A DNA stretch of 44,891 nucleotides from Bacilli bacterium. Its GTDB lineage: Bacteria > Bacillota_I > Bacilli_A > ML615J-28 > CAG-698. The position numbers and the translations under genes are program-made. The stretch spans positions 1 to 44,891 of the forward strand of contig DAOSSK010000003.1 of the NCBI GenBank assembly GCA_035377365.1, written 5' to 3'. The notes under the pieces were generated by a model. The model was not told where the DNA came from. It searched no databases and saw nothing but the letters and a program-made list of their open reading frames with translations. This document shows positions 16,058 to 31,913 of this stretch, in pieces (position 1 is the first letter of the stretch; every line of letters begins with the position of its first letter).

Positions 16058-16063
16058 TATTTT

Positions 16064-17098
16064 TTATCCCGTGATTCCGGTTCTTTCAATTCCCTCTACA
16101 AATTGTTTTTGAACGAAGAAATAACCGATTAATAACGGTAGCATCATTAGTAGTGCTGCAGTATTCGCAATTAATCCATAGAACATCGGATCGGTCGCTA
16201 AAGCTTCATCGGTTAAAGTATCAAAGATAGGTTTACCTTTGGCTACCCAACCACTAATAACCGTAAACAAACGATCTGTTCCTTCCCCTAAACGAGCTGC
16301 TAATACCGGATATGATTGAACGATACTAAACAATCTCGCAAAGTAATAATCATTCCATTGCCATACAAAAGCAAACAATGCCACAACAACTATCGCTCCT
16401 CTAGCGTTTGGTAACATTACACTCCAGAATGTTCTAATAACACCAGCACCATCCACTTGCGCAGACTCTTCTAATTCTGCTGGGATATTTCTAAAGAACT
16501 GTCTGAAAAGATAAATGAAAATCGCCGATCTTATTCCTTGACCAAATGCTGATAGGATAAATATGGATAATACTGTTCCCATCAACTTTATACCAAAAAA
16601 CGTTGTATTAACTAAGAATAACGATCTTGAAACATGCAAAGTCTCATTCGGTACAACTAAGGTAAAGAGAATAAGATAAAAGAGAATATTACTTCCTTTA
16701 AATCTTAACTTAGCAAAAGCATAACCTGCTATCGCTGATGCCATAACTTGGATAAACATTATTGCTAAAGAAAGAAGTGTAGTTCTTACTAAAGTAGGCC
16801 AATAATCAAGTAAGTCCATAGCTAAACCAATATTAGCTGTACTGAATTCAGATGGAATCCAAACAACTTGAGGATTAGTTAAGTCGTTAGGTGATCTAAA
16901 TGCATAAGAGAATTTTTGGAAAATTGGTAAAAGAATTACAAAACATAATCCAATTAAAATCAGCGTTTTAAAAATTCTACCAGCTCTACCACCAACTTTT
17001 TGAGCATAAACTTTTCTTCTTGTCTTTTTTTCATGCTCTGTTAAAACAGGTTTAGAATAATATTCTTGTGGTACTACAATTTTTTGTTTACTCGTCAT
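16064..17098 (-). CDS. CUT1-family carbohydrate ABC transporter permease
   Basis: It has six TM segments and the EAA loop ESAQVDGAGVIRTFWSVMLPNARG. Confidence 0.85.
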   Translation of the reverse strand: MTSKQKIVVPQEYYSKPVLTEHEKKTRRKVYAQKVGGRAGRIFKTLILIGLCFVILLPIFQKFSYAFRSPNDLTNPQVVWIPSEFSTANIGLAMDLLDYWPTLVRTTLLSLAIMFIQVMASAIAGYAFAKLRFKGSNILFYLILFTLVVPNETLHVSRSLFLVNTTFFGIKLMGTVLSIFILSAFGQGIRSAIFIYLFRQFFRNIPAELEESAQVDGAGVIRTFWSVMLPNARGAIVVVALFAFVWQWNDYYFARLFSIVQSYPVLAARLGEGTDRLFTVISGWVAKGKPIFDTLTDEALATDPMFYGLIANTAALLMMLPLLIGYFFVQKQFVEGIERTGITG

Positions 17099-18325: not shown

Positions 18326-21300
18326 TTATTCTCCTTCCAAGATGACATAGTCATTTGCAGCAATGGAAATTCCATTTATGCTATCTAAATATTGGCTATT
18401 TGCATAGTTAATAATAACTCTACAAACAACGCCAAAATCATTTGCATACGTAGATTGAACTACGTTGTCTGTAATGTACTTATGGTCTACTAATCTTCCT
18501 TGGTGAATTCCTGCCTCATTGATTCTTTGATTCATCTCAACAATTTTGTTTTCCCAGTTTAGGAAGTAAGTATTAAAGTACTCTGTATAATCAGTCGTTA
18601 GTAAGGTATTAGTATCTGCATATGAAATTACGAAGTTCAAATTCGAACCTGTCTCCAAAGCTTTTAATAGATACCAACGATAAGATTGTTGATTGTTATA
18701 GTTAACTGTAGTTGTTGTATAGTCAACTAATCCACTTAATGCTAATTGATATAAAGGAATCGAATGCTCTACTGCTGGATATAAAGTTGTAGTAACTGGT
18801 GCATCAACAATAATGTTTGCATATTGTAATGCATAATCAAACGGATTTTTAAGCATTACCTTTTTACCAGACTCTTTAGCTATATCTAATGTAGCTATTT
18901 GATAATCTTGACCAACAACAGTAAAGATTTCTTTTTTATTATCATATGACGAAACTTTTAAGTTACCTAAATCAGATAAATAAATACCTGAAGTATTAAG
19001 TTTCTCATAATTAGCTAAGTATTTATTAAAGTATGATTGATAAAAACGAGGTGAAATGTGATAAATCGGAGCAAGAGAACGATCAAATCTACCAGTAGGT
19101 ACTACATAAGGATAGTATACAGTTTCTGTATTACTTACACTCTTAGCGTTGTACTTTTTCATACCAAATGGATAGTCATATCCTTGGTTTGTAGAAACGT
19201 TAACTTCTGGATAGAAATTAATATTGTTCTCAGTTAAGAATTCACTTAACTTCTTAAATCCTTTTTTTCCACCTAAAACATTAGAAATTTTAATATCTTT
19301 TCTTGCTTTAGGTTCCATCTCATCTTTAGTCCATGATGTATAACTAACACTAAAGTTTTCTACACCTTTTTCTTTTAAGATTTCAATAATCTCTTGTGCT
19401 TCTTCAAAAGTTGTTAGACTATGTGTTTTTTGATAAACAAATCCAGCTGTCATTGTATCTTTTTCAAAAGCACCTAAGAAGTTTAGATTAACTACATTAG
19501 TCTTAGTTTGATCAATTTCTTGCAAATCGTATTTGTTAATTAAATAACTACGATATTGCTTTGCTACCTCAACATAATTAAAGTTAGCATTTGATTTTAC
19601 TTCACCATCTTCAATTGTTTCTGGAACAATGAACTGGAAGTAATATGATAAGTCCGTAGGAATCAACGATTTCGACCATTTTTGATATGAAGATACATAC
19701 CATGATCTTCCAACATTTACAAACTCAGAATCCCTCATACTTACTTCATAGTTAACATAGTTTGAACTACCTGCTGTCCTTGTTCTCATAAAGTCAGCCA
19801 CAATACTATGATGACTTGGAGCAGATTCAATAATACCGATAACCCCTACATTTTCTGTCTTATCTAAATAAGCATACATTGGTAGCATTATTGTTTGTAC
19901 ATCAGCTGGTGCTGTACGTAAGATCTGTGATTTATCAAAACCATAAATCTTTTTCGGTTGATAACCCGCTACGAATTGATCTTGTTTATCACTATTAAAA
20001 CCAATTACAGCTCCACTACCATCAGGGATAATAATTTCCCCTTCAGAGTTATGGTCAAAATTTTTATTGAAGAATGGTAAAATTTCAATACTTGAAATTC
20101 TGAATTCATGAGGATAACCATCTTCACCACTAGCACCTTCTTTAATTGAATCATGTAAAACATCAAACTTTAATCCATTTAATGTAAGCTCGTATTGAAC
20201 TCCAACTTGGAAAACCGCACTTGCTGAAGCAGCACTTTGTTGGTAAATCCTATTTTGCTCTTCTACAATATTCCTTCTTTCTTCGCCTTCAGCTGCTAAG
20301 AAAGGTTCACTAAATTGAGCACGAACTGGATTACCTAGTTGATCATAAACATAGTTTCCTTCTGCGTCTCTTAGTGGAACTCCACCTTGAACTACTGGTC
20401 TACCCTCATAATAAACAATTTTACTATCATCATATTTATCTATAACTGAAGTACTAGTTCTCATATAATTAGTTGGACTAATATCATATAAGAACATATA
20501 TAATTCATTTCTTCTTGATTCTGATGTAGCTTTATTTTCATAAGTCTTAGAACTATTTTCTGTATAGTGAATATAGTTTTTATTTGTTTCGTTAGTAGTT
20601 ATGTTATAGATAAGTTCATAGTTACCATCCATAATTGACTTAATATTAGCTGCCGTTAAGAATGGGTTAACACGAACAGGAGAATCTTTAGTATTGCAGT
20701 TTACCCCTACAACTAACTTTGGTTTTCCCACTTTGTCTATAGTTACTTTACCATCTTCATAATCTGCTTCTGTCCAAAGCAATCCACTTAAATCCCAATA
20801 GCCTAAGAAAGTATTAGTACCATCAACACTATAAGCTGGTGTTGCTTTGCCTAAGCCATTTGCTTCAATATAATTAGCAGCTTCTTCGTTTGTTGTAACA
20901 CCATTTTCACGATAAATTAAATTAAAATGACCTTGTGAATCACGCTCAGATGATACAACTTTCGTAATCCAAGTGTTACCTCTAACTACATCTTCAAAGA
21001 CTGTTCTTTCAATATATTTAGGGAAGAAGTTGTTGGCATTAGTAAATTCACCAACTTCATATAAAACTTGAACTTTATTATCCCCAGCATAATTAATCTT
21101 GTAGTGTTTTGTAGCCGTACCTTTAATTAAGTCCATATAAGCTACACTCTTCGAATATGTTCCTAAGGCTGTTGCTGAAACTTTTCCGCTTTTGCCAAAA
21201 TAACGAAGTCTAAAAACATCACCACTAACTAATTCACCTCTATCATTTGTGTAATCACTTAACTGATATAAAACATTAAATGATTCATACACTAAAAAGC

Positions 21301-22279
21301 CGTTTTTATCTTGAACTTGAACTCCACCAACTTTCTTTGGTGTTCCAGTTGAATTTAAGCCAATCGAAATAGCCGTTGTTTTTTCATTAATATACATTGT
21401 AAATTTTTCATTTTGAGCTACAATTCTTTCTTCCTCAAAAATTGATGTTTTATATTCAATGTTATCTAAAACTGAGTTTAAAACAATTGACTCAGCAATA
21501 TCATTTAAAATACCAACTGCTCTTTGTATATCTTGACGAATATTTGCAAGAACTTCTTCATCAGGATCTTCAATTGATTTTTGAACTATTGCTAGTTCTG
21601 ACATCTTAGTTTCAATTAACTTAATTGGATAATCAAAAACAATAGTATGATTCTCAAAATCTATATTAGTATTATTTGGAAGAACGATTTCTTGATCTTC
21701 CATTTCACCTTCTTCTCCACCTTCTTTAGGTACTTGAATAATAGTTGTTTCATAAGTGTCAAAGAAGTTTAATGCAGTTAATTTATCTACAATCTCTTGA
21801 AAAGCGGCTTTGCCTTTATCTGTTGTTGCTACAACTTTTAAGTTATCAACTCCTGGTTCACCTAAATTATCTTCATAGATGTCCATATCAAAATCACCAG
21901 TTTCAAAAAGTCTAGCAATAGCAAGTTGAGCAATATACATTTCATTAGTAATATCTTCTTCATTATAACCAACATTTAAATTAAGATAGATTGCTGTATT
22001 GCCATAGTAATCTGTTTTTTCAACTTTATAACCTGCAGTCTTTAATGCATTAGCTACATTGTCAATATCACTTGCAGGGAATCCTGCCTTAAAAGTAATT
22101 TTACGATCATATTGTTCTAGATGAGAAAAATCAAGGAGAAATTCTTCAGAATTGAATTCTTCATTATCATAGCTAATAGTTGTTGCTTTTAGGCCACCGA
22201 TAAAGTAAACACCTAAAGTAATACTAATTGCTATAACTAATAGACCTAAAACAATATGTCTTAATCTAATAATTTTCAA
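18326..22279 (-). CDS. Large (1317 aa) N-terminally membrane-anchored extracytoplasmic protein of unknown function (possibly DUF5696-type; unverified)
   Basis: A single N-terminal TM segment (IVLGLLVIAISITLGVYFIGG) is present. The rest is hydrophilic with no motif of a characterised enzyme family that I can name. It is packed between a Yip1-like gene and a permease gene (2-nt gap). Confidence 0.45.
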   Translation of the reverse strand: MKIIRLRHIVLGLLVIAISITLGVYFIGGLKATTISYDNEEFNSEEFLLDFSHLEQYDRKITFKAGFPASDIDNVANALKTAGYKVEKTDYYGNTAIYLNLNVGYNEEDITNEMYIAQLAIARLFETGDFDMDIYEDNLGEPGVDNLKVVATTDKGKAAFQEIVDKLTALNFFDTYETTIIQVPKEGGEEGEMEDQEIVLPNNTNIDFENHTIVFDYPIKLIETKMSELAIVQKSIEDPDEEVLANIRQDIQRAVGILNDIAESIVLNSVLDNIEYKTSIFEEERIVAQNEKFTMYINEKTTAISIGLNSTGTPKKVGGVQVQDKNGFLVYESFNVLYQLSDYTNDRGELVSGDVFRLRYFGKSGKVSATALGTYSKSVAYMDLIKGTATKHYKINYAGDNKVQVLYEVGEFTNANNFFPKYIERTVFEDVVRGNTWITKVVSSERDSQGHFNLIYRENGVTTNEEAANYIEANGLGKATPAYSVDGTNTFLGYWDLSGLLWTEADYEDGKVTIDKVGKPKLVVGVNCNTKDSPVRVNPFLTAANIKSIMDGNYELIYNITTNETNKNYIHYTENSSKTYENKATSESRRNELYMFLYDISPTNYMRTSTSVIDKYDDSKIVYYEGRPVVQGGVPLRDAEGNYVYDQLGNPVRAQFSEPFLAAEGEERRNIVEEQNRIYQQSAASASAVFQVGVQYELTLNGLKFDVLHDSIKEGASGEDGYPHEFRISSIEILPFFNKNFDHNSEGEIIIPDGSGAVIGFNSDKQDQFVAGYQPKKIYGFDKSQILRTAPADVQTIMLPMYAYLDKTENVGVIGIIESAPSHHSIVADFMRTRTAGSSNYVNYEVSMRDSEFVNVGRSWYVSSYQKWSKSLIPTDLSYYFQFIVPETIEDGEVKSNANFNYVEVAKQYRSYLINKYDLQEIDQTKTNVVNLNFLGAFEKDTMTAGFVYQKTHSLTTFEEAQEIIEILKEKGVENFSVSYTSWTKDEMEPKARKDIKISNVLGGKKGFKKLSEFLTENNINFYPEVNVSTNQGYDYPFGMKKYNAKSVSNTETVYYPYVVPTGRFDRSLAPIYHISPRFYQSYFNKYLANYEKLNTSGIYLSDLGNLKVSSYDNKKEIFTVVGQDYQIATLDIAKESGKKVMLKNPFDYALQYANIIVDAPVTTTLYPAVEHSIPLYQLALSGLVDYTTTTVNYNNQQSYRWYLLKALETGSNLNFVISYADTNTLLTTDYTEYFNTYFLNWENKIVEMNQRINEAGIHQGRLVDHKYITDNVVQSTYANDFGVVCRVIINYANSQYLDSINGISIAANDYVILEGE

Positions 22280-22294
22280 CTTATTTTCCTCCTT

Positions 22295-23020
22295 CTAGAA
22301 ATATCGTAAGGATATCTCTCGATATACTGTGTATACGAAACTAAAGATTCTACGGTATAAATCAAATAGCAAAGCAACAGCAAATAGAATTACTATAGCC
22401 GCAACTAAAGTAAACACTGCCATTAAAACACATTTTACTAAACCGTACTCATGAATAGCCATCCAACCAACGAAAAGGAAATAAGCACTACCAAAAGCTC
22501 CAATACCCATAATTAAACTATAGATACCTACTTCTTTAGCTACGATAATATTACTTACAAAAATTCCAAAGAATTTAGTAACTATCATTGGAAATAAAGC
22601 ATAACTAGTAAGTAAGAAGATATCTTTCATCGTTCCTTTACCGTCAAATAGTGTTGTAACTGACCAGTTAGCAACTACTAAAACAACTAAAGGTACAACT
22701 ACATATCCTATTTCCGCTATCGTATTTAAATCAGTAATGTCTCTTTGGTTTACAATAAAACCTGAGTAATGGAAATCCATAATACTTAAAAGAATATAAA
22801 GAACAATGTAAGTAATAGCTAAACCCATCTTTGCTCTTTTATATCTCTTAAATTCATCAAATCCTTTAAAAGGTTGAAATAAAATATAAACAGGAAACTT
22901 AACTCCTTCATTCCATAAAAACTTAAAGAATTGTGAGATTTTTGATAAAACAAGCTTTGCAATATTAAGAAACTTTTCTTTTTTAGAAACTTCAGTTGTC
23001 ATAATTTGTTTTCCTTCCAT
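22295..23020 (-). CDS. Yip1-domain-like polytopic membrane protein
   Basis: It has about five TM segments. The N-terminal PFKGFDEFKRYKRAKMGLAITYIVLY and the later FDGKGTMKDIFLLTSYALFPMI resemble bacterial Yip1-family proteins. Confidence 0.5.
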   Translation of the reverse strand: MEGKQIMTTEVSKKEKFLNIAKLVLSKISQFFKFLWNEGVKFPVYILFQPFKGFDEFKRYKRAKMGLAITYIVLYILLSIMDFHYSGFIVNQRDITDLNTIAEIGYVVVPLVVLVVANWSVTTLFDGKGTMKDIFLLTSYALFPMIVTKFFGIFVSNIIVAKEVGIYSLIMGIGAFGSAYFLFVGWMAIHEYGLVKCVLMAVFTLVAAIVILFAVALLFDLYRRIFSFVYTVYREISLRYF

Positions 23021-24801
23021 TAATCTTCACCCACAATTCTAATAATATCTTTCCTTGGTAGCTCTGCTATCTTACTTCTAGCAACTAAAATTAAAGCTGC
23101 TCCGATTGCTAAAACAGCAAATGCTGTAAAGTTAAGTTTAATTTCACGATCACGATATCTTTGATAAGCATTTGAATAATAACTAGTTTCAAATCCTAAA
23201 CGGAAGTTAGCCATAGCATCTTGATATCTATTTTCATTTAATAATGATTTACCAATACCAATATAAGCAAGCTCATAGTTAGGGTTTTCTGAAACTACGT
23301 TCTTCCACTCTTCTGCTGCTTCAGCTAATTGACCATTATATTGATATTTAACTGCTTTATTAATAATCTTTGCAATATCAGTTGGTTCAAAACGAATAAC
23401 AGCTTTGTTGTATTTATCAAGTACTAAGATATCTTCACCTTGATAACGAACAGCAGTTGGGCTATTGATGTTATTTAACTCTGGTCCTGAATTTCCTGAA
23501 ATGTAAAGTAAGTTACCTTCGTCATCATAAGTAAATAATCTTCCTGCTTTTTCGTCTGCTACTGTATAAACACCATAGTCATTAATTGCAATACCTGCAA
23601 ATCTTGATGAAATCGAGATTCCATCGCTTGCACTACTACCTTCTATGGTAAATGCAATATCCCCTACTGGTAAATGATAACCATTTTTAACTAAAGTATC
23701 TTTACCTGATGGGTTAATCTTTTTGATCATTGTTGTTGCATCTTCACTATAAGTAGAGATCTTTGTTGCTCTAGAAACAGTATAGATAAAGCCATCATCA
23801 TCAATTGATAAATTTCTAAACTCAGTATTTACAATCGCTGTTTGTTGTTTTAGTTGTTCTTCTGTCGAGAAGTTACGCCAAAACTTATCCCAAGCGGATA
23901 ATGTTGTATAGTTAACACCAACATAACTCATGAACTCGCCAAAGTAGCTCATTTGCATAATACCTTCAAAAACAGACTCAGAAATTACAAACATTCTTCC
24001 TGTTGAGTCAGTAACCATTTTTAAAGGCGAAAATGTCTTACCTTCAAAAACAATTGATTCTGGTTGACATACAACTTGAATAACGTGGTAATCAACTGGA
24101 TCTAAAAGTAAAATTTGGTTATTTCCTTTATCACAAATATATAAAACATCTTGATATTCACCTTCAATAATGAATCCACCTTCATCTCTTAAAGGTCTTA
24201 AAGCACGATAAACACCAGAAATATTTTTTGGTTGGATATACCATCTTTGACTATCCCCCCTACTTTCTACTGGAGTTTGAAGTGGTGCTGTAAATGTTAA
24301 CCAGTCAACTTTATTCTTAAATAGTTCATTACTAGTATCTGTACCAGACTTAACTCTATCATATTCATAACGAGTAATTGTATCTGGTCTAAACTCATAA
24401 CGAGTAATAATTTCACCTTCATAAAACCTATCTACAGTTTCACCTTTAAGGCGATATCTTCTTGTTCTTCTTGATGCATCGCTACCTTGTTTAAGTGTTA
24501 ATGTACTATCAAAAACATATAAATGGTTAGAGATTGAATCAATAATGTAAATTGTTTCTTCACCTGTAACTGGGTGTTTAAATATAAACAAGTCTTCTGG
24601 AGAAGTAAATTGGTCAGCTGGTATTCCTTCCCAGGCATTTGATGTAATCGTATAGATTCCATCAGTACTTGCACTCATTCCCACTGTTGAGTGGATAGCT
24701 GTTCCTTTATGGTCATAAGTATATCCACCCTTAGCATTAACACTAACAACAGCAGAACCAAGTAGCAATAAAGCAATTAGCAAATAAAATACTTTCTTCA
24801 T
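23020..24801 (-). CDS. Secreted NHL-type beta-propeller protein with a TPR segment and a C-terminal TM anchor
   Basis: The signal peptide ends VSVNA-KG. About six blade-like repeats are visible (for example SPEDLFIF...IYIIDSISNHLYVFD, VLYICDKGNNQILLLD, GVYTVADEKAGRLFTYD, ILVLDKYNKAVIRF). A TPR-like stretch YQYNGQLAEAAEEWKNVVSENPNYELAYIGIGKSLL follows, then the TM segment FTAFAVLAIGAALILVA. Confidence 0.5.
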   Translation of the reverse strand: MKKVFYLLIALLLLGSAVVSVNAKGGYTYDHKGTAIHSTVGMSASTDGIYTITSNAWEGIPADQFTSPEDLFIFKHPVTGEETIYIIDSISNHLYVFDSTLTLKQGSDASRRTRRYRLKGETVDRFYEGEIITRYEFRPDTITRYEYDRVKSGTDTSNELFKNKVDWLTFTAPLQTPVESRGDSQRWYIQPKNISGVYRALRPLRDEGGFIIEGEYQDVLYICDKGNNQILLLDPVDYHVIQVVCQPESIVFEGKTFSPLKMVTDSTGRMFVISESVFEGIMQMSYFGEFMSYVGVNYTTLSAWDKFWRNFSTEEQLKQQTAIVNTEFRNLSIDDDGFIYTVSRATKISTYSEDATTMIKKINPSGKDTLVKNGYHLPVGDIAFTIEGSSASDGISISSRFAGIAINDYGVYTVADEKAGRLFTYDDEGNLLYISGNSGPELNNINSPTAVRYQGEDILVLDKYNKAVIRFEPTDIAKIINKAVKYQYNGQLAEAAEEWKNVVSENPNYELAYIGIGKSLLNENRYQDAMANFRLGFETSYYSNAYQRYRDREIKLNFTAFAVLAIGAALILVARSKIAELPRKDIIRIVGED

Positions 24802-24804
24802 AGC

Positions 24805-25800
24805 TTAATCCTTTAGTCCACTTGTAGCCATTGTTTCAAGCATGCTACTTTGGGAAATAATAAACATTGTTATTGGTACGGTAATCATAATTAAGCTTAC
24901 CGCAGCTAATGTACCCGATCTTGCAGCTCCAGCTGTAGCTATTTGCGATAGGGCATAACTTACCATCTTAAAGTCTTCACGATAAATATACATCGCTCCT
25001 TGTGTATTCCATAAACTTTGGAAAACTAAAATAATTAAAGTAATCCAAGCTGGTTTTACTAAAGGCATAACGATAGTCCAAAAAATCTTAAAATCGCCAG
25101 CACCATCTAACTTCGCTGATTCAATGTACGAAGTCGGTACTTGAGACATAAACTGTTTCATTAAGAATAATCCTAGGGATGATCCTATCATCGGCAAGAT
25201 TAAAGCTAGTGGATTATCAATTAAACCAATCCAGTTAAAGATAATGTAGTTAGGAATAGAAGTTACTGCTCCTGGGAACATTAAAGAATAAACGATAATT
25301 GTAAAGATAATCGTTCCACCTGGAATCTTATATTTTGCAAGTGGATAAGCACACATTGAGGCAATAACTACGTGTCCTACTGTTCCAAGTATTGTTACCA
25401 TAACTGTATTAAATAAATATCTAGCAAATGGAACAGTTGAGTTAGCTAGTGCAACACTCAAATCTGTGAAGTTATCTAAAGTTGGGTTTCTTACAATAAT
25501 GTTTGGTGGGAACTTGAATAACTCATCTAGAGGTTTAAAGGCATTGTTTATTACTAATACTAGTGGTAATGCACTTAAAATTCCCGCTAAACATAGGAAG
25601 AAAAATAGTACTAAGTCGCCCCCAACTGATCTATTAATTCTTTTTCTTTTTTTACTACGGCGATGTACTTTAATCGTGCTTATTTCTGCGAAAGGTCGTG
25701 AGTCAATACGTTTAGCACGTTTGGCGTTACGAAGAGCTTTTTTATCTTCTTTTAGCTGAGCTTTTTCAGCTGCAGTTAATTTTTTTCTTGCTTCAGCCAT
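24805..25800 (-). CDS. CUT1-family carbohydrate ABC transporter permease
   Basis: The EAA loop is ESAKLDGAGDFKIFWTIVMPLVKP. It has a basic N-terminal extension of about 60 aa. Confidence 0.85.
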   Translation of the reverse strand: MAEARKKLTAAEKAQLKEDKKALRNAKRAKRIDSRPFAEISTIKVHRRSKKRKRINRSVGGDLVLFFFLCLAGILSALPLVLVINNAFKPLDELFKFPPNIIVRNPTLDNFTDLSVALANSTVPFARYLFNTVMVTILGTVGHVVIASMCAYPLAKYKIPGGTIIFTIIVYSLMFPGAVTSIPNYIIFNWIGLIDNPLALILPMIGSSLGLFLMKQFMSQVPTSYIESAKLDGAGDFKIFWTIVMPLVKPAWITLIILVFQSLWNTQGAMYIYREDFKMVSYALSQIATAGAARSGTLAAVSLIMITVPITMFIISQSSMLETMATSGLKD

Positions 25801-26795
25801 TATGATCCCACCCTTCCAATAATTTTTCTAATTAATTTATTTAATGCTATCGCCGAAACGAAAAGGATTGTGGCAATCGCTGAAGCATAACCCATCTCAA
25901 ATCTTTGTCCACCATAGTCTTGTAAGTGGTTTACAATCGTATGACCGGCATAGTTAATTGAAGGGAAACCAGCTAAAGCAGTAGTTACAGCACCAACACC
26001 AAGTGATGCTGAGATTGATAATACAGCACTAAATAAAAGCTGTGGTCTCATGTTTGGTAAAGTAATATACCATAACTCTTGCCAACGGTTTTTAACACCA
26101 TCAACTGCTGCTGCTTCGTATTGTGATCTATCGACACCTTTTAGACCAGCAATTAAGGTTAAGAAGTTAACCCCTAAGCTCATCCAAAGCTGAACAATAA
26201 TTACAATCGGCAATATATATTTTTCTGTTTGAAGCCAAAGAATAGGTTCTCTAATAAATCCCCAATTGATTAAGAAGGAATTGGCATAACCATAAATATC
26301 ACTAGAGAAAATCAAACTCCAAATTGTAATCGCTCCTCCAGAAATAGATGGAGCATAGAAAATTAAAGTTATAAATGCTCTTAGTTTATCTGGTAATTCA
26401 TTAATTAACCAAGCAAGGACAAAGGAAATTATGTATCCAAGTGGCCCAGTAATAATCGCAATAATTAAAGTATTTTGCACAGCTACAATAAAAATTGGAT
26501 CATCTAATAATAGTGTTAAGTAGTTTGACCAACCGATAAATTTTGGAGCCTCAAGTAAGTTAAAATATGTAAAACTTAAGAAGAAGCTCATTAAAACAGG
26601 TAAAACAGTAAATAAGAAAAATAATGCTAAGTAAGGAATCATCATTAAATATAATGTTTTATTTAACCAAAATTTTCTTCTTGCTGGCTTTTTCCTGCTC
26701 CAAACATCTAAACGGCGGGCAGTATCTTCTTTCCACTCACGAAAAGATCTTCTTTTCTTGATAGCTTGATTATCTGCTATAACTTTTTCAGCCAT
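25800..26795 (-). CDS. CUT1-family carbohydrate ABC transporter permease
   Basis: The EAA loop is EAAAVDGVKNRWQELWYITLPNMRP. It has six TM segments. Confidence 0.85.
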   Translation of the reverse strand: MAEKVIADNQAIKKRRSFREWKEDTARRLDVWSRKKPARRKFWLNKTLYLMMIPYLALFFLFTVLPVLMSFFLSFTYFNLLEAPKFIGWSNYLTLLLDDPIFIVAVQNTLIIAIITGPLGYIISFVLAWLINELPDKLRAFITLIFYAPSISGGAITIWSLIFSSDIYGYANSFLINWGFIREPILWLQTEKYILPIVIIVQLWMSLGVNFLTLIAGLKGVDRSQYEAAAVDGVKNRWQELWYITLPNMRPQLLFSAVLSISASLGVGAVTTALAGFPSINYAGHTIVNHLQDYGGQRFEMGYASAIATILFVSAIALNKLIRKIIGRVGS

Positions 26796-26797
26796 AC

Positions 26798-29700
26798 TTA
26801 TTCATCCTCTCTAGTTATAAAACCAAATTCTTTTCTTTTCTTTGTTAACTCGGCATTAATAGTATCTACATAAGTTAGTAGTACTTCCCTAGGATTTAAC
26901 TTTTCGTTAATCGTTTTTCTAAAGGCATTCTCTACGTTTCTTCCTGTATAGTAACCACCAGCTACTTCTGGAATACCAATTGTATTAACCCATTGTGATA
27001 ATAGAATTTCTTTTTCTTCTGCTGTCCAAGCCATACTCTTGAATGCTTCCATATTAGCTGTATTATGACGAGCTGCTGAACCTAAAATTGACTCTAATTC
27101 CTGAGCATAAGATAGTTGAGTTGGGGCTGATGTAACCCACTTTAAGAATTCCCAACTAGACTCAGGATCTTTTGCTTGTTTCATAATAATACCTGCTGTT
27201 CCGCTTGATGCACCCTTGTTATTGATAATGCCTGTTTCTGGATTTCTCACACCTGGAATCGGCGCAAAGCCCCATTTACCAGTAATCTCTGGTGCGAATA
27301 CAGCTAAGTAGTTAAAAGTTGTATAATCTACAACTCCAATTGGAGTTTCACCAGTTCTAAATCTATTTAAGAAGCTTGCAGCTGTCGGGAAAGAATAATC
27401 TGTATAATACTTAACCCAAGTTTCAAATGATTGCATTGCTTCTTCACTATCTAAGGCAGTAGCTGTTTTATCTTCAGTATAGAAATCCCCACCATTTTGG
27501 AATAGCATTGATGAGAACACTTGGTTTACTGCTGCTGATGCCCCAACTGCACTTAGTGGTAAATAGAACTGTAAGTTAGAAATTTGTAACTCTGTTACTA
27601 AGCTTGTAACTTCATCCCAAGTTTTAGGAACTGTCCAACCTCTTTCTTGAAAAATATCTTTACGATAGAAAGTAACTAAGAAAGATTGCGTGATTGGTAA
27701 AGCATAAAACTCTAAATCATGAATATCTGCTGTCTTTTGTAAAGCATAAGGTGTCATTGCACTATCAGCAAATCTTGGATTAGCTTCACCATCTAACCAT
27801 ACCTTAACGCCATATTCAGTAACTTCGTATCGGAAGTCATCAAATTGGGTAATATCATATGCAGCATTTCTTAAAGCATAGTTTACAGGTAATCCGTTAT
27901 AAACGTTCAAGGCTACATCTGGTCCTGTACCAGCAAGTGTAGCCGGTAATAATACTCCGGGATCTACAACCTTTAAAATAACGTTAATTCCTTTTTGATT
28001 AACAAATGTTGTATCACACAAAGTCTTCATTGCGTTAGCTTGTTCCCTACCGGCAACAGCACTAGTTAAAAACCATACTTCAATTTCTTTATCAAAACCT
28101 TCAGCGTTTGTTACTCCAATTGATTGATAATCAAAGAAGAAAGTCATAAAGAAAGCTTTAATATCAAACCACACATTACTAAACCAGTCAGCATTTGGTT
28201 TTGGTAATTCTGCATCACTACTAGAAACATATAATGCTTCAACTGTTAGTGATTGTTCTTGAATACTAGTAATCCAAGTTCCAAGTGAAGATAAGTTTTG
28301 AACAAACGTTCCTAATCTTTCTTGAATTGTTCTTGGCTTTTCTAAAAATGATTCAAGCTGAATTGCCATTGTATCTAGTACTGATACTAAACTTCCTTTT
28401 TCTCCTGAAAGTTCAGTAATATAAGCTGACACTTCTCTCAATTCTTGAGCATTTGCTTCAAAACATTCTAGTAAACCAACAATACGAGCATTGTCTCCAT
28501 ATAAGTGATATTCTTGATATGGGTCTGGGTTTACTGTAGTTATTGAGATAATTTGTAAGTACATATTATTTAAACTATTAACTACATTTCTAACTTTGTT
28601 TATAGGACTACCATAAGCCCCAAGTGTAGATTCTAGTCTAATTGTATTAATACCTTCATGGAAATAGAATTTATAGTTTTCTTCACTATTTCCCATCGTA
28701 ACTAATCGCCAATTTGTACTGTAATTAAAATTAGAGCTATTAGCTTCGATAAATGGAATTTCACCATTAATATATAATCTTCTTGTAGAGAAAAGTCCAC
28801 GAGCTGTATTTTGTTTAGCCTTAAAACTAAGCTCATACATTCCTGCTTCTTCTACATCAACTTCCCATTCAATCCAATCTCCAGGTGCTGTCCATTTTGT
28901 ACCACCAATTGAGTTTAGTGTTACTTTAACTGGATGCGATGGAGTGTTTGTTGGAGAAGTACGATCAGCAATTGCATATAGTGTTGGAGATGAACGTTTT
29001 GTTGAATCTTCAGCTTCAATTTGTAACATTACTTCACTTGGTGCACTTTTATCTTGATGTAGATTTAAATAATCTTGATAAGTAACGATTGCTGGAACAG
29101 ATTCTAGTTTTAACTCTACAATACTCATATTCTCTCTAACAGACTCAAAAGTAATAGTATTAGTTCCTGATTTAAAATGGAACATATAAGGATCTATTAC
29201 ATAACCAGTATAATCTCTTACATAAGCTGTACTTAAATCGAATACTTCCATTTGTGATGGTTTCATATCATTACCATTAATATCTTGAATAATTGCTGCT
29301 CTATCTTTCCACATTCTATAAAATCTAATGTGTCCGGCAGTATCAAATGGTAACTCGCCATTAATTAAAACTCTTCTTTCAATATTAGCTCCACCACTAG
29401 TTTCTCTAACATTTAAAGTTTCATCACGAGATTTCTCTGCATAATATACTAAACTCAAATAGTAGAATCCAGCCTCTGAAACATCAACAGAGAAAGTAAC
29501 ACTTCCTGTTTCTGATGTATAATACCCAGCTCTAGTTTCTCCATTTGGTAAAACAATTGAAGTATACGGATCATCTGCAGCTAGATACTTAAAATCTATT
29601 GATTCTGGCGATGCAACTCCAGCAGCTAAATCAACTGCTATACTTTCGATTTGTGGTGTTACAAGTAATGGCTTAATATCTTTATCAAAATCAAGTACTT

Positions 29701-30058
29701 CTAACCTTTGAGGATCAGTAATACCTGTAGCTTTAGCTCTTAAGTAATTATTGTAATCACCTTCTGGATATAACTCTTCTGGGATTGTTGAATCAGATGT
29801 TGTTCTATCAGGTCTAAAACTCTTCACAATTGAAACTACTAAAATAGTCATGATTAAAACTAAAATTGTAAGCCAAATTGCTCGTTTAATCATCTTCACA
29901 CGATTAGTTCTACGCTTTAACCTACTTTCGCTTGAATCAACTAAATCATAGTTAACAGTAGTTATCTTAACATCTTCAATTGCTACTGCTTCTTTTTGTT
30001 GTTCTACTTGTTGAACATCTTCAACTTTTTCTTGAGATTTTTTCTTATTTTTACTCAT
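26798..30058 (-). CDS. Membrane-anchored giant binding protein: cytoplasmic tail, TM anchor, two CBM-like beta-sandwich repeats, a helical linker, and a C-terminal ABC solute-binding domain
   Basis: The TM segment AIWLTILVLIMTILVVSIV follows a roughly 58-aa charged tail. The internal repeat is EAGFYYLSLVYYA...RRVLINGELPF...GTNTITFES versus EAGMYELSFKAKQ...RRLYINGEIPF...GINTIRLES. The C-terminal roughly 430 aa look like a family-1 sugar SBP (IEVWFL..., FYRKDIFQERGWTVPKTWDE). Confidence 0.65.
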   Translation of the reverse strand: MSKNKKKSQEKVEDVQQVEQQKEAVAIEDVKITTVNYDLVDSSESRLKRRTNRVKMIKRAIWLTILVLIMTILVVSIVKSFRPDRTTSDSTIPEELYPEGDYNNYLRAKATGITDPQRLEVLDFDKDIKPLLVTPQIESIAVDLAAGVASPESIDFKYLAADDPYTSIVLPNGETRAGYYTSETGSVTFSVDVSEAGFYYLSLVYYAEKSRDETLNVRETSGGANIERRVLINGELPFDTAGHIRFYRMWKDRAAIIQDINGNDMKPSQMEVFDLSTAYVRDYTGYVIDPYMFHFKSGTNTITFESVRENMSIVELKLESVPAIVTYQDYLNLHQDKSAPSEVMLQIEAEDSTKRSSPTLYAIADRTSPTNTPSHPVKVTLNSIGGTKWTAPGDWIEWEVDVEEAGMYELSFKAKQNTARGLFSTRRLYINGEIPFIEANSSNFNYSTNWRLVTMGNSEENYKFYFHEGINTIRLESTLGAYGSPINKVRNVVNSLNNMYLQIISITTVNPDPYQEYHLYGDNARIVGLLECFEANAQELREVSAYITELSGEKGSLVSVLDTMAIQLESFLEKPRTIQERLGTFVQNLSSLGTWITSIQEQSLTVEALYVSSSDAELPKPNADWFSNVWFDIKAFFMTFFFDYQSIGVTNAEGFDKEIEVWFLTSAVAGREQANAMKTLCDTTFVNQKGINVILKVVDPGVLLPATLAGTGPDVALNVYNGLPVNYALRNAAYDITQFDDFRYEVTEYGVKVWLDGEANPRFADSAMTPYALQKTADIHDLEFYALPITQSFLVTFYRKDIFQERGWTVPKTWDEVTSLVTELQISNLQFYLPLSAVGASAAVNQVFSSMLFQNGGDFYTEDKTATALDSEEAMQSFETWVKYYTDYSFPTAASFLNRFRTGETPIGVVDYTTFNYLAVFAPEITGKWGFAPIPGVRNPETGIINNKGASSGTAGIIMKQAKDPESSWEFLKWVTSAPTQLSYAQELESILGSAARHNTANMEAFKSMAWTAEEKEILLSQWVNTIGIPEVAGGYYTGRNVENAFRKTINEKLNPREVLLTYVDTINAELTKKRKEFGFITREDE

Positions 30059-31913
30059 GGTTTTCTCCTTGTAATGCTTTGCAGTGAAGCTTGCCTAATT
30101 TAAAGACAGCTTCTAACATCTCAATTGACTCAGCTAAATTGCTTTTCTTATTTCTAGCTAGCCATAATTCTTTTTGTTTTTCTAAAATCTTTTCATTCTT
30201 AGATAATTTTTCTAATAATTTAAGTTTCTTAGTTTTATCTAATTTATGATTAAAGCTTTGCATTAATAATCTCGTAACTAAAACTAAGTCAATACTTTGA
30301 TTGATTTCAGCTAAAACTAATTTCTTATCTTTAATTTTTAATTTAGTATTTTTTAATCCCTTGCGATATAGTTCTAAATACTCTACTAATGCTTTATATT
30401 TAACATCTTCAATAATACTATTTTTAATTTTCTCATAATAATAATCTAATGGCTTTTCTTGCTGCAAAGCATAATGGGCCCACATATAACCAAAGAAAGT
30501 TAAAGTAGCATTTGTAATATAATAGTTTTCAAATTGATAATAATTACCAATACCAAGTAATATTTGGGCAAAATTACCTTTTTCATCTTGGAATACTTCT
30601 TCGTTTAAATACTTAGTTGCATTAATCATTTCGCCTTCTTGTAAGCTCCAAGAATAAAACCCCGCAAATACTAAAGGTGCTACAATTGATGGAAGTAATT
30701 GCAAGTGACCTGCATCACCCCAATCAGTTAATAAAATACCTAAACCATTATATTTATAAACATTGTCACAAGCACTTTTAATATTTTCAATAAAATCTTG
30801 TGTTCTTCCAGTAAAGCTACACCAACTTGTAGTACCGGGAGCAGCTCCAAACTTAATGTTTAAAGTTCCTAAAGTTTTTAATGTTTCAGAAAACTTATAA
30901 GTTGCATCATAACCCCAGTCTACAAAAATAATATCTTTAGGTAGTTTTTTCAAAGCTTCTTGGTCTTTGATTAAAACATCCCCCCACATAATCGGTGTTT
31001 TATTATATTTTTTAACTTCTTCTAAAACAAGATTTAAATAATCTAAATAAACATTACTTAAACCTTCCTTCTCCACAAGTTCCTTAGTCTTACCCATACC
31101 AAGTTCCATTGGTTCATCAAAGTTAATATTGAAATATTTAGATTTTCGGTTAGGAAGCATCTCTCCATACATCTTACTTACAAGTTTAATTGATCTTGGA
31201 TCTTTGGGATCTAATGTTACTGGATTTCTATGTCTTCCCCAATAAAATGCTCCATCAGGACAAATAGCTAAGTCTTTATATTCTTTAGTAGCAAGCCAAG
31301 GTCCCATATGACCAAAACCATTTTGGTTAGGAACAAAATCTATTTCCCTTGCAAAACAGTAATCCTCAATTAACTTATATTCTTCCTTTGTAATATAACC
31401 ATCTTCTAATAGATGCTTTCTTGCAAAGTCATACTCGTAACTAAATCCCTCTACATATAACTCAAAATGGTTCATCTTAAGTTCTGCCATAAGGTCAATG
31501 ATTTTATAGATAGTCTTTAATGAAGGCACTTTATTACGACTAATATCTAAAGTAAATCCTCTAACTAATAATTTAGGTTCATCCCAAATCTCTACAGTTT
31601 CTAACTTTTCAGATTTAAAAATTTGCTTTAAAGTTTGGCTTGCATAATAAGCACCACTAGCATCATTGTAATAAACATCAATTTTATCTTTTTCAATAAC
31701 AAGCTTATAAGTTTGAACCGATCTTGCCTTTTCATAGATAAAATTAATATCCCCAACTTTCCTAGTTTTCTTTACTTTAATAAAACTCTTTAGGTTTGTA
31801 AAAACGTTTTCTAAATTTTCAGTAAAAAAAACGGAATACTTGTCTTTCTTTGTAAATTCATCTTTTGTATATTTAATATACTTAACTTTTGGGTAAATCT
31901 TATACAATTTCAA
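30051..31913 (-). CDS. GH20-family beta-N-acetylhexosaminidase-like protein, cytoplasmic
   Basis: VRGFTLDISRNKVPSLKTIYKIIDLMAELKMNHFELYVE and a downstream FDEP acidic pair are typical of GH20 catalytic domains. There is no signal peptide. A TTG start is inferred from the track. Confidence 0.7.
   Translation of the reverse strand: MKLYKIYPKVKYIKYTKDEFTKKDKYSVFFTENLENVFTNLKSFIKVKKTRKVGDINFIYEKARSVQTYKLVIEKDKIDVYYNDASGAYYASQTLKQIFKSEKLETVEIWDEPKLLVRGFTLDISRNKVPSLKTIYKIIDLMAELKMNHFELYVEGFSYEYDFARKHLLEDGYITKEEYKLIEDYCFAREIDFVPNQNGFGHMGPWLATKEYKDLAICPDGAFYWGRHRNPVTLDPKDPRSIKLVSKMYGEMLPNRKSKYFNINFDEPMELGMGKTKELVEKEGLSNVYLDYLNLVLEEVKKYNKTPIMWGDVLIKDQEALKKLPKDIIFVDWGYDATYKFSETLKTLGTLNIKFGAAPGTTSWCSFTGRTQDFIENIKSACDNVYKYNGLGILLTDWGDAGHLQLLPSIVAPLVFAGFYSWSLQEGEMINATKYLNEEVFQDEKGNFAQILLGIGNYYQFENYYITNATLTFFGYMWAHYALQQEKPLDYYYEKIKNSIIEDVKYKALVEYLELYRKGLKNTKLKIKDKKLVLAEINQSIDLVLVTRLLMQSFNHKLDKTKKLKLLEKLSKNEKILEKQKELWLARNKKSNLAESIEMLEAVFKLGKLHCKALQGENHE

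What the first reader, a model, noticed from the sequence alone, without database searches (positions are those of the whole stretch)
18326..30058. Six-gene ABC importer module carrying three envelope proteins of unknown function
The genes run as a giant anchored binding protein (26798-30058), two permeases, an NHL-propeller/TPR protein, a Yip1-like membrane protein and a 1317-aa anchored protein. They are packed with 1-nt overlaps or gaps of 2-15 nt, and the next gene (17088-18323) is yet another permease. That packing argues for one transcript and stoichiometric co-production. The three extra proteins are all predicted to face or sit in the membrane: an N-terminal anchor, five TM segments, and a signal peptide plus C-terminal anchor. 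None shows a catalytic signature I can name. I hypothesise an extracytoplasmic capture and processing apparatus that feeds glycan fragments to the importer, a Gram-positive or wall-less functional analogue of Sus-like systems. I have an unverified memory that DUF5696 and Yip1-family genes are annotated beside sugar ABC permeases in other Bacillota. If so, the module is conserved yet uncharacterised.
Basis: partly seen in the sequence, partly recalled or inferred. Interest (0 to 1): 0.8.

Follow-up and report, generated by a model that had tools for sequence, protein, structure and literature searches.

The report
Conserved twin sugar-importer cassette, uncharacterised helpers
The six genes are the core of an eight-to-nine-gene cassette, kept in the same order in all 65 uninterrupted loci out of 80 Bacillota species sampled: two sugar ABC importers plus three envelope proteins that nobody has studied, one of them a distant relative of GH129 glycosidases; in this wall-less Acholeplasma-family bacterium it sits inside a gene island for eating other bacteria's cell wall.

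Summary
The conserved cassette is: giant membrane-anchored binding protein, permeases P1 and P2, NHL-propeller/TPR protein, Yip1 membrane protein, DUF5696 protein, permeases P3 and P4. A second lipoprotein binding protein usually lies nearby; here it is at 9503-12688.

In 80 species-level loci the order was intact in 58. In 7 more the NHL and Yip1 genes are fused. The other 15 lack the full order: most are cut by contig ends, three carry frameshift-split genes, and one (L059) lacks P1/P2. DUF5696 was never seen outside the cassette.

DUF5696 is not fold-less. Its model (pLDDT 91) and a profile-profile alignment (probability 99.5%) make it a remote homologue of GH129 and GH129-like glycosidases. 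Only one GH129 catalytic aspartate aligns with a mostly conserved residue: D1103 here, present in 76% of the family.

Flanking enzymes differ by lineage: GH10, GH26, GH30, GH43 and GH5 elsewhere, GH20, GH3 and NamZ here. The cassette therefore looks like a substrate-neutral uptake machine. All soluble hydrolases in this window appear cytoplasmic, which implies import of oligomers.

I found no literature on it. The proposed capture-and-processing mechanism is plausible but untested.

The parts
31953..31981 (-). Best sigma-70-like promoter match (TTGAAA-17-TATAAT, 11/12), 40 nt upstream of the GH20 start. Candidate start of the transcription unit.
   Evidence: This is a consensus match only.
30051..31913 (-). 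GH20 beta-N-acetylhexosaminidase-like protein with no hydrophobic N-terminus, so predicted cytoplasmic. It overlaps the SBP gene by 8 nt. It is a lineage-specific leading gene of the unit.
   Evidence: It is conserved at this position in L007 and L010-L018.
26798..30058 (-). Giant binding protein, 1086 aa. It has a cytoplasmic N-tail and a single TM anchor (residues 60-78). Two CBM35/Golvesin_C-like beta-sandwiches follow (about 157-319 and 344-478), then a bundle of four long helices (about 480-600). The C-terminal part is a CUT1-type oligosaccharide-binding SBP fold (about 604-1086).
   Evidence: CBM_35 in 7/30 homologues, Golvesin_C in 11/30; model pLDDT 89, pTM 0.83; the SBP part matches sophoro-, malto- and cello-oligosaccharide binding proteins with TMt about 0.8.
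25800..26795 (-). Permease P1 (MalF/UgpA-like) with an EAA loop at residue 227.
24805..25800 (-). Permease P2 (MalG/UgpE-like) with an EAA loop at residue 227.
23020..24801 (-). 593-aa protein with an N-terminal signal or anchor (4-22), an NHL beta-propeller, a TPR region (about 480-550) and a C-terminal TM helix (556-574).
   Evidence: family profile against PknD-sensor, Pizza and TRIM71 NHL propellers, E 1e-26 to 1e-40; against TPR, E 1e-37.
22295..23020 (-). Yip1-family membrane protein, 241 aa, about 5 TM segments. It overlaps the NHL gene by 1 nt. In 8 other species it is fused to the C-terminus of the NHL-TPR protein.
   Evidence: Pfam confirms NHL+TPR+Yip1 in one chain in the five tested (L043, L052, L059, L083, L086).
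18326..22279 (-). 1317-aa DUF5696 protein. It has an N-terminal TM anchor (9-27) and a lineage-specific region (28 to about 690) with no detectable relatives. The rest is a GH129-like body: an N beta-sandwich (about 691-896), a (beta/alpha)8 barrel (about 930-1258) and a C beta-sandwich (about 1262-1315). D1103 aligns with the GH129 catalytic Asp.
   Evidence: pLDDT 91, pTM 0.89. Foldseek 5opq E 1e-24, 5wzn E 8e-23; profile against PDB sequences, E 1e-6; hhalign probability 99.5%. Also.
17088..18323 (-). Permease P3 (MalF/UgpA-like, 22% identical to P1) with an EAA loop at residue 310 and a long Lys-rich N-terminal tail.
16064..17098 (-). Permease P4 (MalG/UgpE-like, 24% identical to P2) with an EAA loop at residue 210. 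It overlaps P3 by 11 nt.
16028..16058 (.). Perfect 13-14 bp hairpin in the 38-nt gap after P4. It may be a terminator or attenuator marking the end of the cassette transcript.
   Evidence: Pattern match only.
13746..16025 (-). GH3 (NagZ-type) fused to glucosamine-6-phosphate deaminase (NagB), predicted cytoplasmic. Downstream catabolism of imported amino sugars.
   Evidence: These are separate genes in L007 and L012-L017.
12793..13749 (-). Double-GNAT acetyltransferase that overlaps the GH3-NagB gene by 4 nt. It is conserved after GH3/NagB in the Acholeplasma and Bacilli lineage.
9503..12688 (-). Lipoprotein (lipobox LLLFGC) with three Big_2 domains. Its C-terminal domain (about 615-973) is homologous to the second, small SBP that accompanies the cassette in other taxa. 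It is the probable second binding protein of the system.
   Evidence: (HMM of the accompanying-SBP family, E 2e-16); a family member is SBP_bac_1 at E 4.5e-23. There is no direct Pfam or PDB hit for this copy.
8584..9390 (-). 268-aa multi-TM protein. It clusters with a DUF624 (YesL-like) protein of related loci. Possible further accessory membrane protein.
   Evidence: cluster 6; PF04854 on the L007 homologue. There is no Pfam hit for this copy.

Best explanation
The region is the core of a conserved Bacillota cassette that builds a twin ABC sugar-uptake machine.

Shown:
- There are two complete CUT1-type translocators, P1P2 and P3P4. They are old paralogues, and all four permeases carry EAA loops for docking an ATPase. 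The ATPase is encoded elsewhere.
- There is a signal-anchored giant binding protein that carries two CBM-like beta-sandwiches in front of an oligosaccharide-type SBP fold.
- There is a second, lipoprotein binding protein.
- Three co-inherited envelope proteins complete the set: an NHL-propeller/TPR protein tied to a Yip1 membrane protein (one polypeptide in several species), and a membrane-anchored GH129-like DUF5696 protein.

Inferred:
- The CBM-bearing binding protein holds oligosaccharides or polymer ends at the membrane surface.
- DUF5696 binds, and possibly trims, them.
- The two importers take up the products.
- NHL-TPR/Yip1 acts as an assembly scaffold. A Yip1 protein, YknW, has that role in the YknXYZ ABC pump.

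What the cassette imports is set by the neighbouring genes. In this Acholeplasmataceae genome every soluble hydrolase of the island appears cytoplasmic (GH20, GH3-NagB, GH3-MupG, NamZ, GHL10). The cargo is therefore most likely GlcNAc/MurNAc-containing oligomers scavenged from other bacteria's peptidoglycan, or possibly chitin, which are dismantled inside the cell.
For: Synteny:
- 58 of 80 species loci have the full 8-gene order, 7 have an NHL-Yip1 fusion, and 15 are interrupted: most by contig ends, three by frameshift-split genes, and L059 lacks P1/P2. No locus has DUF5696 elsewhere.
- Reciprocal look-ups starting from the giant SBP return the same module.
- RefSeq annotation of the Butyrivibrio plasmid pNP243 shows the same order.
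- The order holds at 24-34% DUF5696 identity.

Co-inheritance:
- Pairwise distances of all seven other components correlate with those of DUF5696 at r = 0.90-0.98 over 55 species.
- Median gene junctions are NHL/Yip1 -14 nt and DUF5696/P3 -4 nt.
- NHL-TPR-Yip1 single chains are confirmed by Pfam in the five species tested.

Two translocators:
- EAA loops are present in all four permeases. P1/P3 are 22% identical and P2/P4 are 24% identical.

DUF5696 fold and homology.

Giant SBP architecture. It is TM-anchored in 56 of 59 homologues, whereas 34 of 44 small SBPs carry a lipobox.

Substrate set by the flanks:
- Elsewhere the flanks hold GH26+CBM35, GH10, GH30, GH43+CBM6, GH5, CBM65, LacI and AraC.
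- In this lineage they hold GH20, GH3, NagB, GNAT and NamZ.
- The soluble enzymes lack signal sequences.

Yip1 precedent: PMC4887032.
Against: - Nothing here is experimental. No transcript, interaction or activity data exist for any member; I found no papers.
- The residue aligned to the GH129 catalytic Asp is missing in 24% of DUF5696 proteins. The other DagB catalytic residues (Glu517, Glu531, Asp202) align to non-conserved positions.
- The characterised GH129 and GH129-like enzymes, and the next-closest fold family GH101, are alpha-glycosidases (alpha-GalNAc or alpha-1,3-anhydrogalactose). The flanking enzymes belong to families best known (my own knowledge) for beta-linked polymers. A backbone-trimming role is therefore doubtful.
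- High mirror-tree correlations are also expected from plain vertical inheritance.
- No ATPase gene lies in the cassette. ABC-ATPase-like ORFs occur in only 5 of 80 flanks.
- The prediction that the enzymes are cytoplasmic rests on a hydropathy scan only.
Confidence: 0.6

Rival explanations
1. DUF5696 is a non-catalytic, glycosidase-derived protein. It would act as a pseudo-enzyme: a carbohydrate-binding or docking subunit, for example a lid or hand-over platform for P3P4. The cassette would then do no extracellular processing at all and would only capture and import.
For: - The GH129 nucleophile-equivalent Asp is absent in 36 of 151 members. No conserved acid/base sits at the aligned positions.
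- The same protein family accompanies loci for chemically unrelated glycans.
- DUF5696 is translationally coupled to P3, with a median overlap of 4 nt.
Against: - The family keeps its own near-invariant polar set: PDGSG 752-756, D782, D/E1171, E1209, H1266, N1291. That set could form a different active site.
- GH129 and GH129-like enzymes themselves differ in their second catalytic residue (PMC5698469).
- In this window DUF5696 is the only candidate extracellular glycan-active protein.
Confidence: 0.3
2. The NHL-TPR/Yip1/DUF5696 trio is a sensing or regulatory device. It would gate transporter activity or signal substrate presence rather than take part in capture or processing.
For: - The NHL propeller family matches the extracellular sensor domain of the kinase PknD (E 5e-26).
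- TPR is a protein-interaction module.
- Regulators lie next to the cassette in other taxa: a histidine kinase, an AraC-type response regulator and LacI.
Against: - None of the three proteins has a cytoplasmic output domain. There is no kinase, HTH or nucleotide cyclase, only TM segments.
- No regulator was recognised in the 45-kb window.
- The adjacent regulators vary in type between lineages, whereas the trio does not.
Confidence: 0.15
3. These are two ordinary, independent ABC importers with three unrelated membrane proteins. They share an operon for co-regulation only and have no physical or functional coupling.
For: - Each permease pair plus a binding protein is a complete conventional CUT1 system.
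- Two binding proteins are usually present.
Against: - The gene order is the same in all 65 uninterrupted loci, spanning Acholeplasmataceae, Paenibacillaceae, Lachnospiraceae, Limnochordia and Peptococcaceae. The accessory genes always sit between the two permease pairs.
- DUF5696 was never found outside the cassette in the 80 best loci.
- NHL and Yip1 are fused in several species.
- Operons held together by co-regulation alone normally shuffle over such evolutionary distances.
Confidence: 0.12

Closest known systems
CUT1-family (type I, MalFGK2-like) carbohydrate ABC importers of Bacillota, whose ATPase is encoded elsewhere (MsmX/MsmK type; from my own knowledge of the family)
   Same: It has an SBP_bac_1 binding protein, MalF-like plus MalG-like permeases with EAA loops, and no ATPase gene in the locus.
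   Different: - Two permease pairs are always together.
- One binding protein is about 1000 aa, TM-anchored rather than lipidated, and carries two CBM-like domains and a helical stalk.
- Three obligatory extra envelope proteins are inserted between the pairs.
GH129 alpha-N-acetylgalactosaminidase NagBb (PDB 5wzn) and GH129-like 3,6-anhydro-D-galactosidase DagB (PDB 5opq, 8rzk)
   Same: - The architecture is the same three domains: N beta-sandwich, (beta/alpha)8 barrel and C beta-sandwich.
- Foldseek gives E 1e-24 and 8e-23.
- The profile hits both sequences at E about 1e-6. hhalign gives probability 99.5%.
- The Asp shared by both enzymes (Asp486/Asp435) aligns to D1103.
   Different: - Identity is 12-17%.
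- The Asp is present in only 76% of DUF5696 proteins.
- The other catalytic residues are not conserved.
- DUF5696 is membrane-anchored, always lies inside a transporter cassette, and has its own conserved PDGSG, D782 and E1209 motifs.
Polysaccharide utilisation loci: Sus-like systems of Bacteroidota and 'Gram-positive PULs'
   Same: A transporter, surface glycan-binding modules, glycoside hydrolases and often a regulator are co-located. The enzyme set changes with the substrate around a constant uptake core.
   Different: There is no SusC/SusD and no outer membrane. The constant core is an ABC system plus NHL-TPR, Yip1 and DUF5696, which I found described nowhere.
YknW, the Yip1-family accessory subunit of the Bacillus YknXYZ ABC pump
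   Same: A Yip1-domain membrane protein is encoded with an ABC transporter. YknW is reported to modulate assembly of its complex (PMC4887032).
   Different: YknWXYZ is a MacB-type exporter for a peptide toxin. Here the partners are importer permeases, and the Yip1 protein is genetically tied to an NHL-TPR ectodomain.

Membership tests
CUT1-type ABC carbohydrate importer | Extracytoplasmic family-1 solute-binding protein | tested here: met
   SBP_bac_1 E 4e-21. The fold matches oligosaccharide SBPs with TMt about 0.8.
CUT1-type ABC carbohydrate importer | Two BPD_transp_1 permeases (MalF-like and MalG-like) with EAA loops | tested here: met
   Met twice over, by P1/P2 and by P3/P4.
CUT1-type ABC carbohydrate importer | Cognate ABC ATPase | tested here: not met
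   No ABC_tran ORF is in the window. ATPase-like ORFs occur in only 5 of 80 flanks and never inside the cassette. Supply in trans is usual for this family in Bacillota (my own knowledge) but cannot be checked here.
GH129 / GH129-like glycoside hydrolases | Beta-sandwich + (beta/alpha)8 barrel + beta-sandwich fold, and detectable homology | tested here: met
   (probability 99.5%, E 1.3e-21).
GH129 / GH129-like glycoside hydrolases | Catalytic Asp (NagBb Asp435 = DagB Asp486) | tested here: inconclusive
   It aligns to D1103 of the window protein, but is present in only 115 of 151 family members. The alignment is of low confidence in this stretch, and no coordinates were available for a superposition.
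GH129 / GH129-like glycoside hydrolases | Second catalytic carboxylate (NagBb Glu478; DagB Glu517/Glu531) and the trans Asp202 | tested here: not met
   The DagB residues align to variable positions K1144, V1158 and V770. NagBb Glu478 was not mapped here.
GH129 / GH129-like glycoside hydrolases | Glycosidase activity | not testable with these tools
   No member of DUF5696 has been assayed, as far as my searches show.
Yip1 family (PF04893) | Pfam model above the gathering score; multi-pass membrane protein | tested here: met
   45.4 bits against a cut-off of 28.6; about 5 hydrophobic segments.
NHL-repeat beta-propeller with TPR | NHL repeats forming a propeller; TPR helices | tested here: met
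   This copy alone is below the Pfam cut-off (16.9 against 20 bits). Orthologues score 35-69 bits. The family profile hits NHL propellers at E 1e-40 and TPR at E 1e-37. No model was made of this protein.
Sus-like PUL (Bacteroidota) | SusC TonB-dependent transporter and SusD lipoprotein pair | tested here: not met
   No such domains occur in any ORF of the window or the related loci examined. Any resemblance is functional only.
Gram-positive PUL (operational definition: transporter + glycoside hydrolase(s) + regulator co-located) | All three gene classes are adjacent | tested here: inconclusive
   The transporter and hydrolases are present here. No regulator was recognised in the window. Regulators are present in other taxa.

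The most novel reading that the evidence does not exclude
The eight proteins assemble into one membrane supercomplex, a monoderm 'utilisome'. In it an NHL-TPR/Yip1 scaffold would join two ABC translocators. A CBM-bearing anchored receptor would hold the glycan chain. A GH129-derived subunit would feed or cut it directly above the second translocator. This would be a transport architecture without precedent among ABC importers. It would be the Bacillota counterpart of the SusCD utilisome, re-used for substrates from plant hemicelluloses to bacterial peptidoglycan.
Probability: 0.3. Interest if true: 0.85.

Novelty: new variant of a known kind. Interest (0 to 1): 0.66.

Why it matters
The cassette is common and unstudied.
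- The DUF5696 family has about 4,000 representatives at 50% identity with E <= 1e-30.
- It occurs in soil Paenibacillus, in rumen and gut Lachnospiraceae (Roseburia, Butyrivibrio), and in wall-less Acholeplasmataceae.
- Every source still names its special parts only 'hypothetical', 'YIP1 family' or 'DUF5696'.

If the accessory proteins are needed for uptake, current models of glycan foraging by Gram-positive bacteria lack a component. Those models have extracellular enzymes, one binding protein and one permease pair.

The system gives a concrete, genetically tractable way to ask how bacteria without an outer membrane keep oligosaccharides from diffusing away.

The copy in this window also suggests that a wall-less bacterium lives partly on other bacteria's peptidoglycan.

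Tried and rejected
- The first homology search, with the full 1317-aa protein, saturated its candidate list and returned only 4 hits. Searching with an alignment of the domain solved this.
- A sub-profile of the second half of the DUF5696 barrel against PDB sequences found nothing relevant. Catalytic-site mapping therefore needed DagB homologues fetched from metagenomes, followed by hhalign.
- No coordinates are available in the sandbox. I could not check a residue-level superposition or whether the conserved residues cluster in 3D.
- The lineage-specific N-terminal region of the 1317-aa protein (616 aa scanned, residues 28-643) has no Pfam or PDB relative.
- NCBIfam has no model for the Yip1 or DUF5696 proteins.
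- Literature searches for DUF5696, PF18952, Yip1 with ABC/NHL/SBP terms, and CBM-bearing anchored SBPs returned nothing relevant.
- The C-terminal domain of the Big_2 lipoprotein gives no direct Pfam or PDB hit. Its SBP assignment rests on an HMM built here.
- The promoter and terminator scan found no more sites than in shuffled sequence. Only the top promoter hit and one long hairpin are worth mention.
- I did not test for a defence-system or mobile-element origin of the three proteins. Their domains and fixed place between permease genes gave no reason to.


Full report
**1. Observation**

The six ORFs lie on the minus strand exactly as stated.
- Junctions inside the six are SBP/P1 +2 nt, P1/P2 -1, P2/NHL +3, NHL/Yip1 -1 and Yip1/DUF5696 +15.
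- The same tight packing continues outward. GH20 (30051-31913) overlaps the SBP gene by 8 nt. DUF5696/P3 is +2 nt, and P3/P4 overlap by 11 nt.
- Only after P4 is there a 38-nt gap. It holds a perfect 13-14 bp hairpin at 16028-16058.
- The best promoter-like site of the region (11 of 12 consensus positions) lies 40 nt upstream of GH20.
- Most starts are preceded by a purine-rich ribosome-binding-like sequence.

The next two genes are both permeases.

The NHL/TPR call is weak for this copy. It is solid for the family: a 20-member profile hits NHL propellers (Pizza, TRIM71, the PknD sensor) at E 1e-26 to 1e-40 and consensus TPR proteins at 1e-37.

A hydropathy scan gives these membrane segments:
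- the SBP has one TM at residues 60-78
- the NHL protein has an N-terminal segment and a C-terminal TM (556-574)
- Yip1 has about five TM segments
- the 1317-aa protein has one N-terminal TM (9-27)

**2. Source and setting**

The window is 97% identical, at the level of this protein, to a contig of an Acholeplasmataceae MAG (L010). The Yip1 protein is found unchanged on contigs from many samples.

The whole 45 kb reads as a peptidoglycan and amino-sugar catabolic island. It contains:
- GHL10, a GNAT, a beta-lactamase-fold protein, an M19 dipeptidase and a LysA-like decarboxylase
- GH20, then the cassette, then a GH3-NagB fusion and a double GNAT
- a Big_2 lipoprotein
- NamZ, a GH3-MupG fusion, a BadF-type kinase, AnmK and a MurQ-like SIS protein

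None of the soluble enzymes has an N-terminal hydrophobic segment. By that simple test the only outward-facing proteins of the island are the giant SBP, the NHL-TPR protein, DUF5696 and the Big_2 lipoprotein.

**3. The unit is eight genes and is conserved**

Look-ups of DUF5696 relatives at 34% and 24% identity showed the same neighbours in the same order, including a second permease pair after DUF5696.

I then scanned one genome per species and fetched 80 loci. I classified their ORFs with HMMs built from the window proteins.
- 58 loci have the order giant SBP-P1-P2-NHL-Yip1-DUF5696-P3-P4.
- 7 have the same order with no separate Yip1 gene.
- 15 lack the full order. Most are cut by contig ends. 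L029, L050 and L079 carry frameshift-split genes. L059 has a fragmented SBP and lacks P1/P2.
- No locus shows DUF5696 in another context.

The carriers include Acholeplasmataceae, Izimaplasma, unclassified Bacilli, about 30 Paenibacillus species, Cohnella, Gorillibacterium and Neobacillus. They also include Lachnospiraceae (Roseburia, Butyrivibrio, Acetatifactor), Acutalibacteraceae, Ruminococcaceae, Peptococcaceae and Limnochordia.

Starting instead from giant-SBP homologues returns the same module in an Erysipelothrix MAG and another Bacillota contig. RefSeq annotates it on Butyrivibrio fibrisolvens plasmid pNP243 as: extracellular solute-binding protein, two permeases, NHL repeat-containing protein, YIP1 family protein, DUF5696 domain-containing protein, two permeases, two SBPs.

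The 'missing' Yip1 genes are fusions. Eight species have a long NHL protein and no separate Yip1 gene. In the five tested, one chain carries NHL, TPR and a C-terminal Yip1 domain.

Other quantitative points:
- Median junctions across species are -14 nt for NHL/Yip1 and -4 nt for DUF5696/P3.
- Pairwise distances of each component track those of DUF5696 (r 0.90-0.98, 55 species). This fits inheritance as a block, although shared phylogeny alone would also give it.
- P1/P3 and P2/P4 are only 22% and 24% identical. All four carry EAA loops. These are two distinct, complete translocators.
- ATPase-like ORFs are rare in the flanks and never inside the cassette.

**4. A second binding protein**

Many loci have an ordinary binding protein of about 465 aa. 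It lies just upstream in Paenibacillus or downstream in Lachnospiraceae, and is usually lipidated: 34 of 44 carry a lipobox. By contrast, only 1 of 59 giant SBPs has a lipobox, and 56 of 59 have an N-terminal TM segment.

An HMM of that accompanying family hits the C-terminal part (about residues 615-973) of the window's Big_2 lipoprotein, 9503-12688, at E 2e-16. A member of that family is a clear SBP_bac_1. The window therefore probably also has its second binding protein, displaced downstream and extended by three Big_2 domains. This copy has no direct Pfam or PDB hit.

**5. The giant binding protein**

Thirty homologues are 34-63% identical to the window protein over their whole length. All are named only 'extracellular solute-binding protein'.

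In the N-terminal half, 11 of 30 hit Golvesin_C and 7 of 30 hit CBM_35.

The AlphaFold model of residues 85-1086 has pLDDT 89 and pTM 0.83. It shows two beta-sandwiches, four long helices and an SBP fold. The SBP part resembles sophoro-, malto- and cello-oligosaccharide binding proteins with TM about 0.8 on the target.

**6. DUF5696**

The model of residues 644-1317 has pLDDT 91 and pTM 0.89. It is a beta-sandwich, a (beta/alpha)8 barrel and a C-terminal beta-sandwich.

The best structural matches are:
- the GH129-like 3,6-anhydro-D-galactosidase DagB (5opq, 8rzk; E 1e-24, TM 0.58)
- then GH101, GH13, GH31 and GH97

A profile of the family finds both GH129 proteins by sequence at E about 1e-6.

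I fetched eight DagB homologues from metagenomes. I aligned their profile with a 151-member DUF5696 profile. The result was probability 99.5%, E 1.3e-21, over 554 columns. Homology is therefore established.

DagB's catalytic candidates are Asp486, Glu517, Glu531 and Asp202. Only Asp486 is shared with NagBb, where it is Asp435 (PMC5698469).
- In the profile alignment Asp486 pairs with D1103 of the window protein ('YLSDLG').
- The other three pair with variable positions.
- D1103 is Asp in 115 of 151 members and is absent from whole sub-lineages.
- The family's own best-conserved polar residues are P752-D-G-S-G756, D782, D/E1171, E1209, H1266 and N1291.

Whether DUF5696 is an enzyme is therefore open.

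The family is large: 4,046 representatives at 50% identity with E <= 1e-30.

**7. What sets the substrate**

Genes next to the cassette differ by lineage.
- Outside the Acholeplasma/Bacilli lineage they are GH26+CBM35, GH10, GH30, GH43+CBM6, GH5, a CBM65 protein, LacI and AraC-type regulators, and DUF624 proteins.
- In the Acholeplasma and related Bacilli lineage they are GH20 in front, with GH3, NagB, a double GNAT, a Big_2 protein and NamZ behind.

The cassette thus behaves as a constant uptake core within variable, PUL-like loci.

**8. Mechanism**

Shown:
- two complete CUT1-type translocators
- two binding proteins, one of them anchored and bearing CBM-like domains
- a GH129-homologous anchored protein
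- an NHL-TPR protein genetically and sometimes covalently tied to Yip1
- strict co-inheritance of all of these

Inferred:
- The parts work together at the membrane surface to hold glycan fragments and import them.
- NHL-TPR/Yip1 serves as a scaffold. A Yip1 protein, YknW, modulates assembly of the YknXYZ ABC pump (PMC4887032).
- DUF5696 acts as a binding or trimming subunit.

For this window, the cytoplasmic location of all recognised hydrolases implies import of GlcNAc/MurNAc-containing oligomers and their breakdown inside the cell.

The weak points are:
- there are no experimental data
- catalytic conservation in DUF5696 is incomplete
- known GH129 and GH101 enzymes act on alpha-linkages, whereas the flanking enzymes suggest beta-linked substrates

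**9. Novelty**

I found no paper mentioning DUF5696 or PF18952, and none combining Yip1 with sugar ABC systems.

The parts belong to known kinds: an ABC importer, a CBM, a GH-like fold, NHL, TPR and Yip1. The fixed eight-gene combination is an undescribed variant. That combination has twin translocators, an anchored CBM-bearing SBP and three obligatory accessory proteins.

Noticed in passing
window 368-16025 and 30051-38211: The whole window is a catabolic island for peptidoglycan sugars and stem peptides. It holds NamZ, GH3-MupG, AnmK, a MurQ-like protein, a BadF-type kinase, GH3-NagB, GH20, GHL10, a beta-lactamase-fold protein, an M19 dipeptidase and a LysA-like DAP decarboxylase. The genome belongs to Acholeplasmataceae, a wall-less group. 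All of these enzymes appear cytoplasmic. I found no paper linking Acholeplasma with MurNAc catabolism.
   Followed up: partly
window 9503-12688 (-): A 1061-aa lipoprotein with three Big_2 domains. Its C-terminal domain is homologous (HMM E 2e-16) to the small SBP that accompanies the cassette in other taxa. It is a probable second binding protein that Pfam does not recognise.
   Followed up: partly
window 13746-16025 (-) and 4819-7443 (-): Two unusual gene fusions: GH3 (NagZ-type) with NagB deaminase, and GH3 with the 6-phospho-N-acetylmuramidase MupG. GH3 and NagB are separate adjacent genes in related loci (L007, L012-L017).
   Followed up: partly
window 8584-9390 (-): A 268-aa multi-TM protein with no Pfam hit. 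It clusters with a DUF624 (YesL-like) protein in related loci. DUF624 proteins also recur beside the cassette in Lachnospiraceae.
   Followed up: no
window 32068-32593 (-): A MazE-like antitoxin and YafQ-like toxin pair sits between GHL10 and the GH20 promoter region. The toxin gene is not called on some same-species contigs (L001, L004).
   Followed up: no
window 16028-16058: A perfect 13-14 bp inverted repeat fills the only sizeable intergenic gap (38 nt), between P4 and GH3-NagB. It may be a terminator or attenuator separating the transporter cassette from the downstream catabolic genes.
   Followed up: no
window 18326-22279 (-), residues 28 to about 690: The window's DUF5696 protein carries an extra N-terminal region of about 600 aa. 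It is absent from the roughly 850-aa versions in Paenibacillus and Clostridia, is shared only with Acholeplasma and Bacilli relatives, and has no detectable homologue or domain.
   Followed up: partly
window 16064-18323, 24805-30058 (-): The giant SBP, P1, P2 and P3 all begin with long Lys/Arg/Glu-rich, predicted cytoplasmic tails of about 45-110 aa before their first TM segment. I did not compare this with the orthologues.
   Followed up: no
window 9000-12500 and 24000-29000: GC content rises to 0.35-0.37, against about 0.27-0.32 elsewhere in the window.
   Followed up: no
window 41579-43674 (-): A LemA-family and DUF2207 membrane-protein gene pair. It is unrelated to the finding.
   Followed up: no
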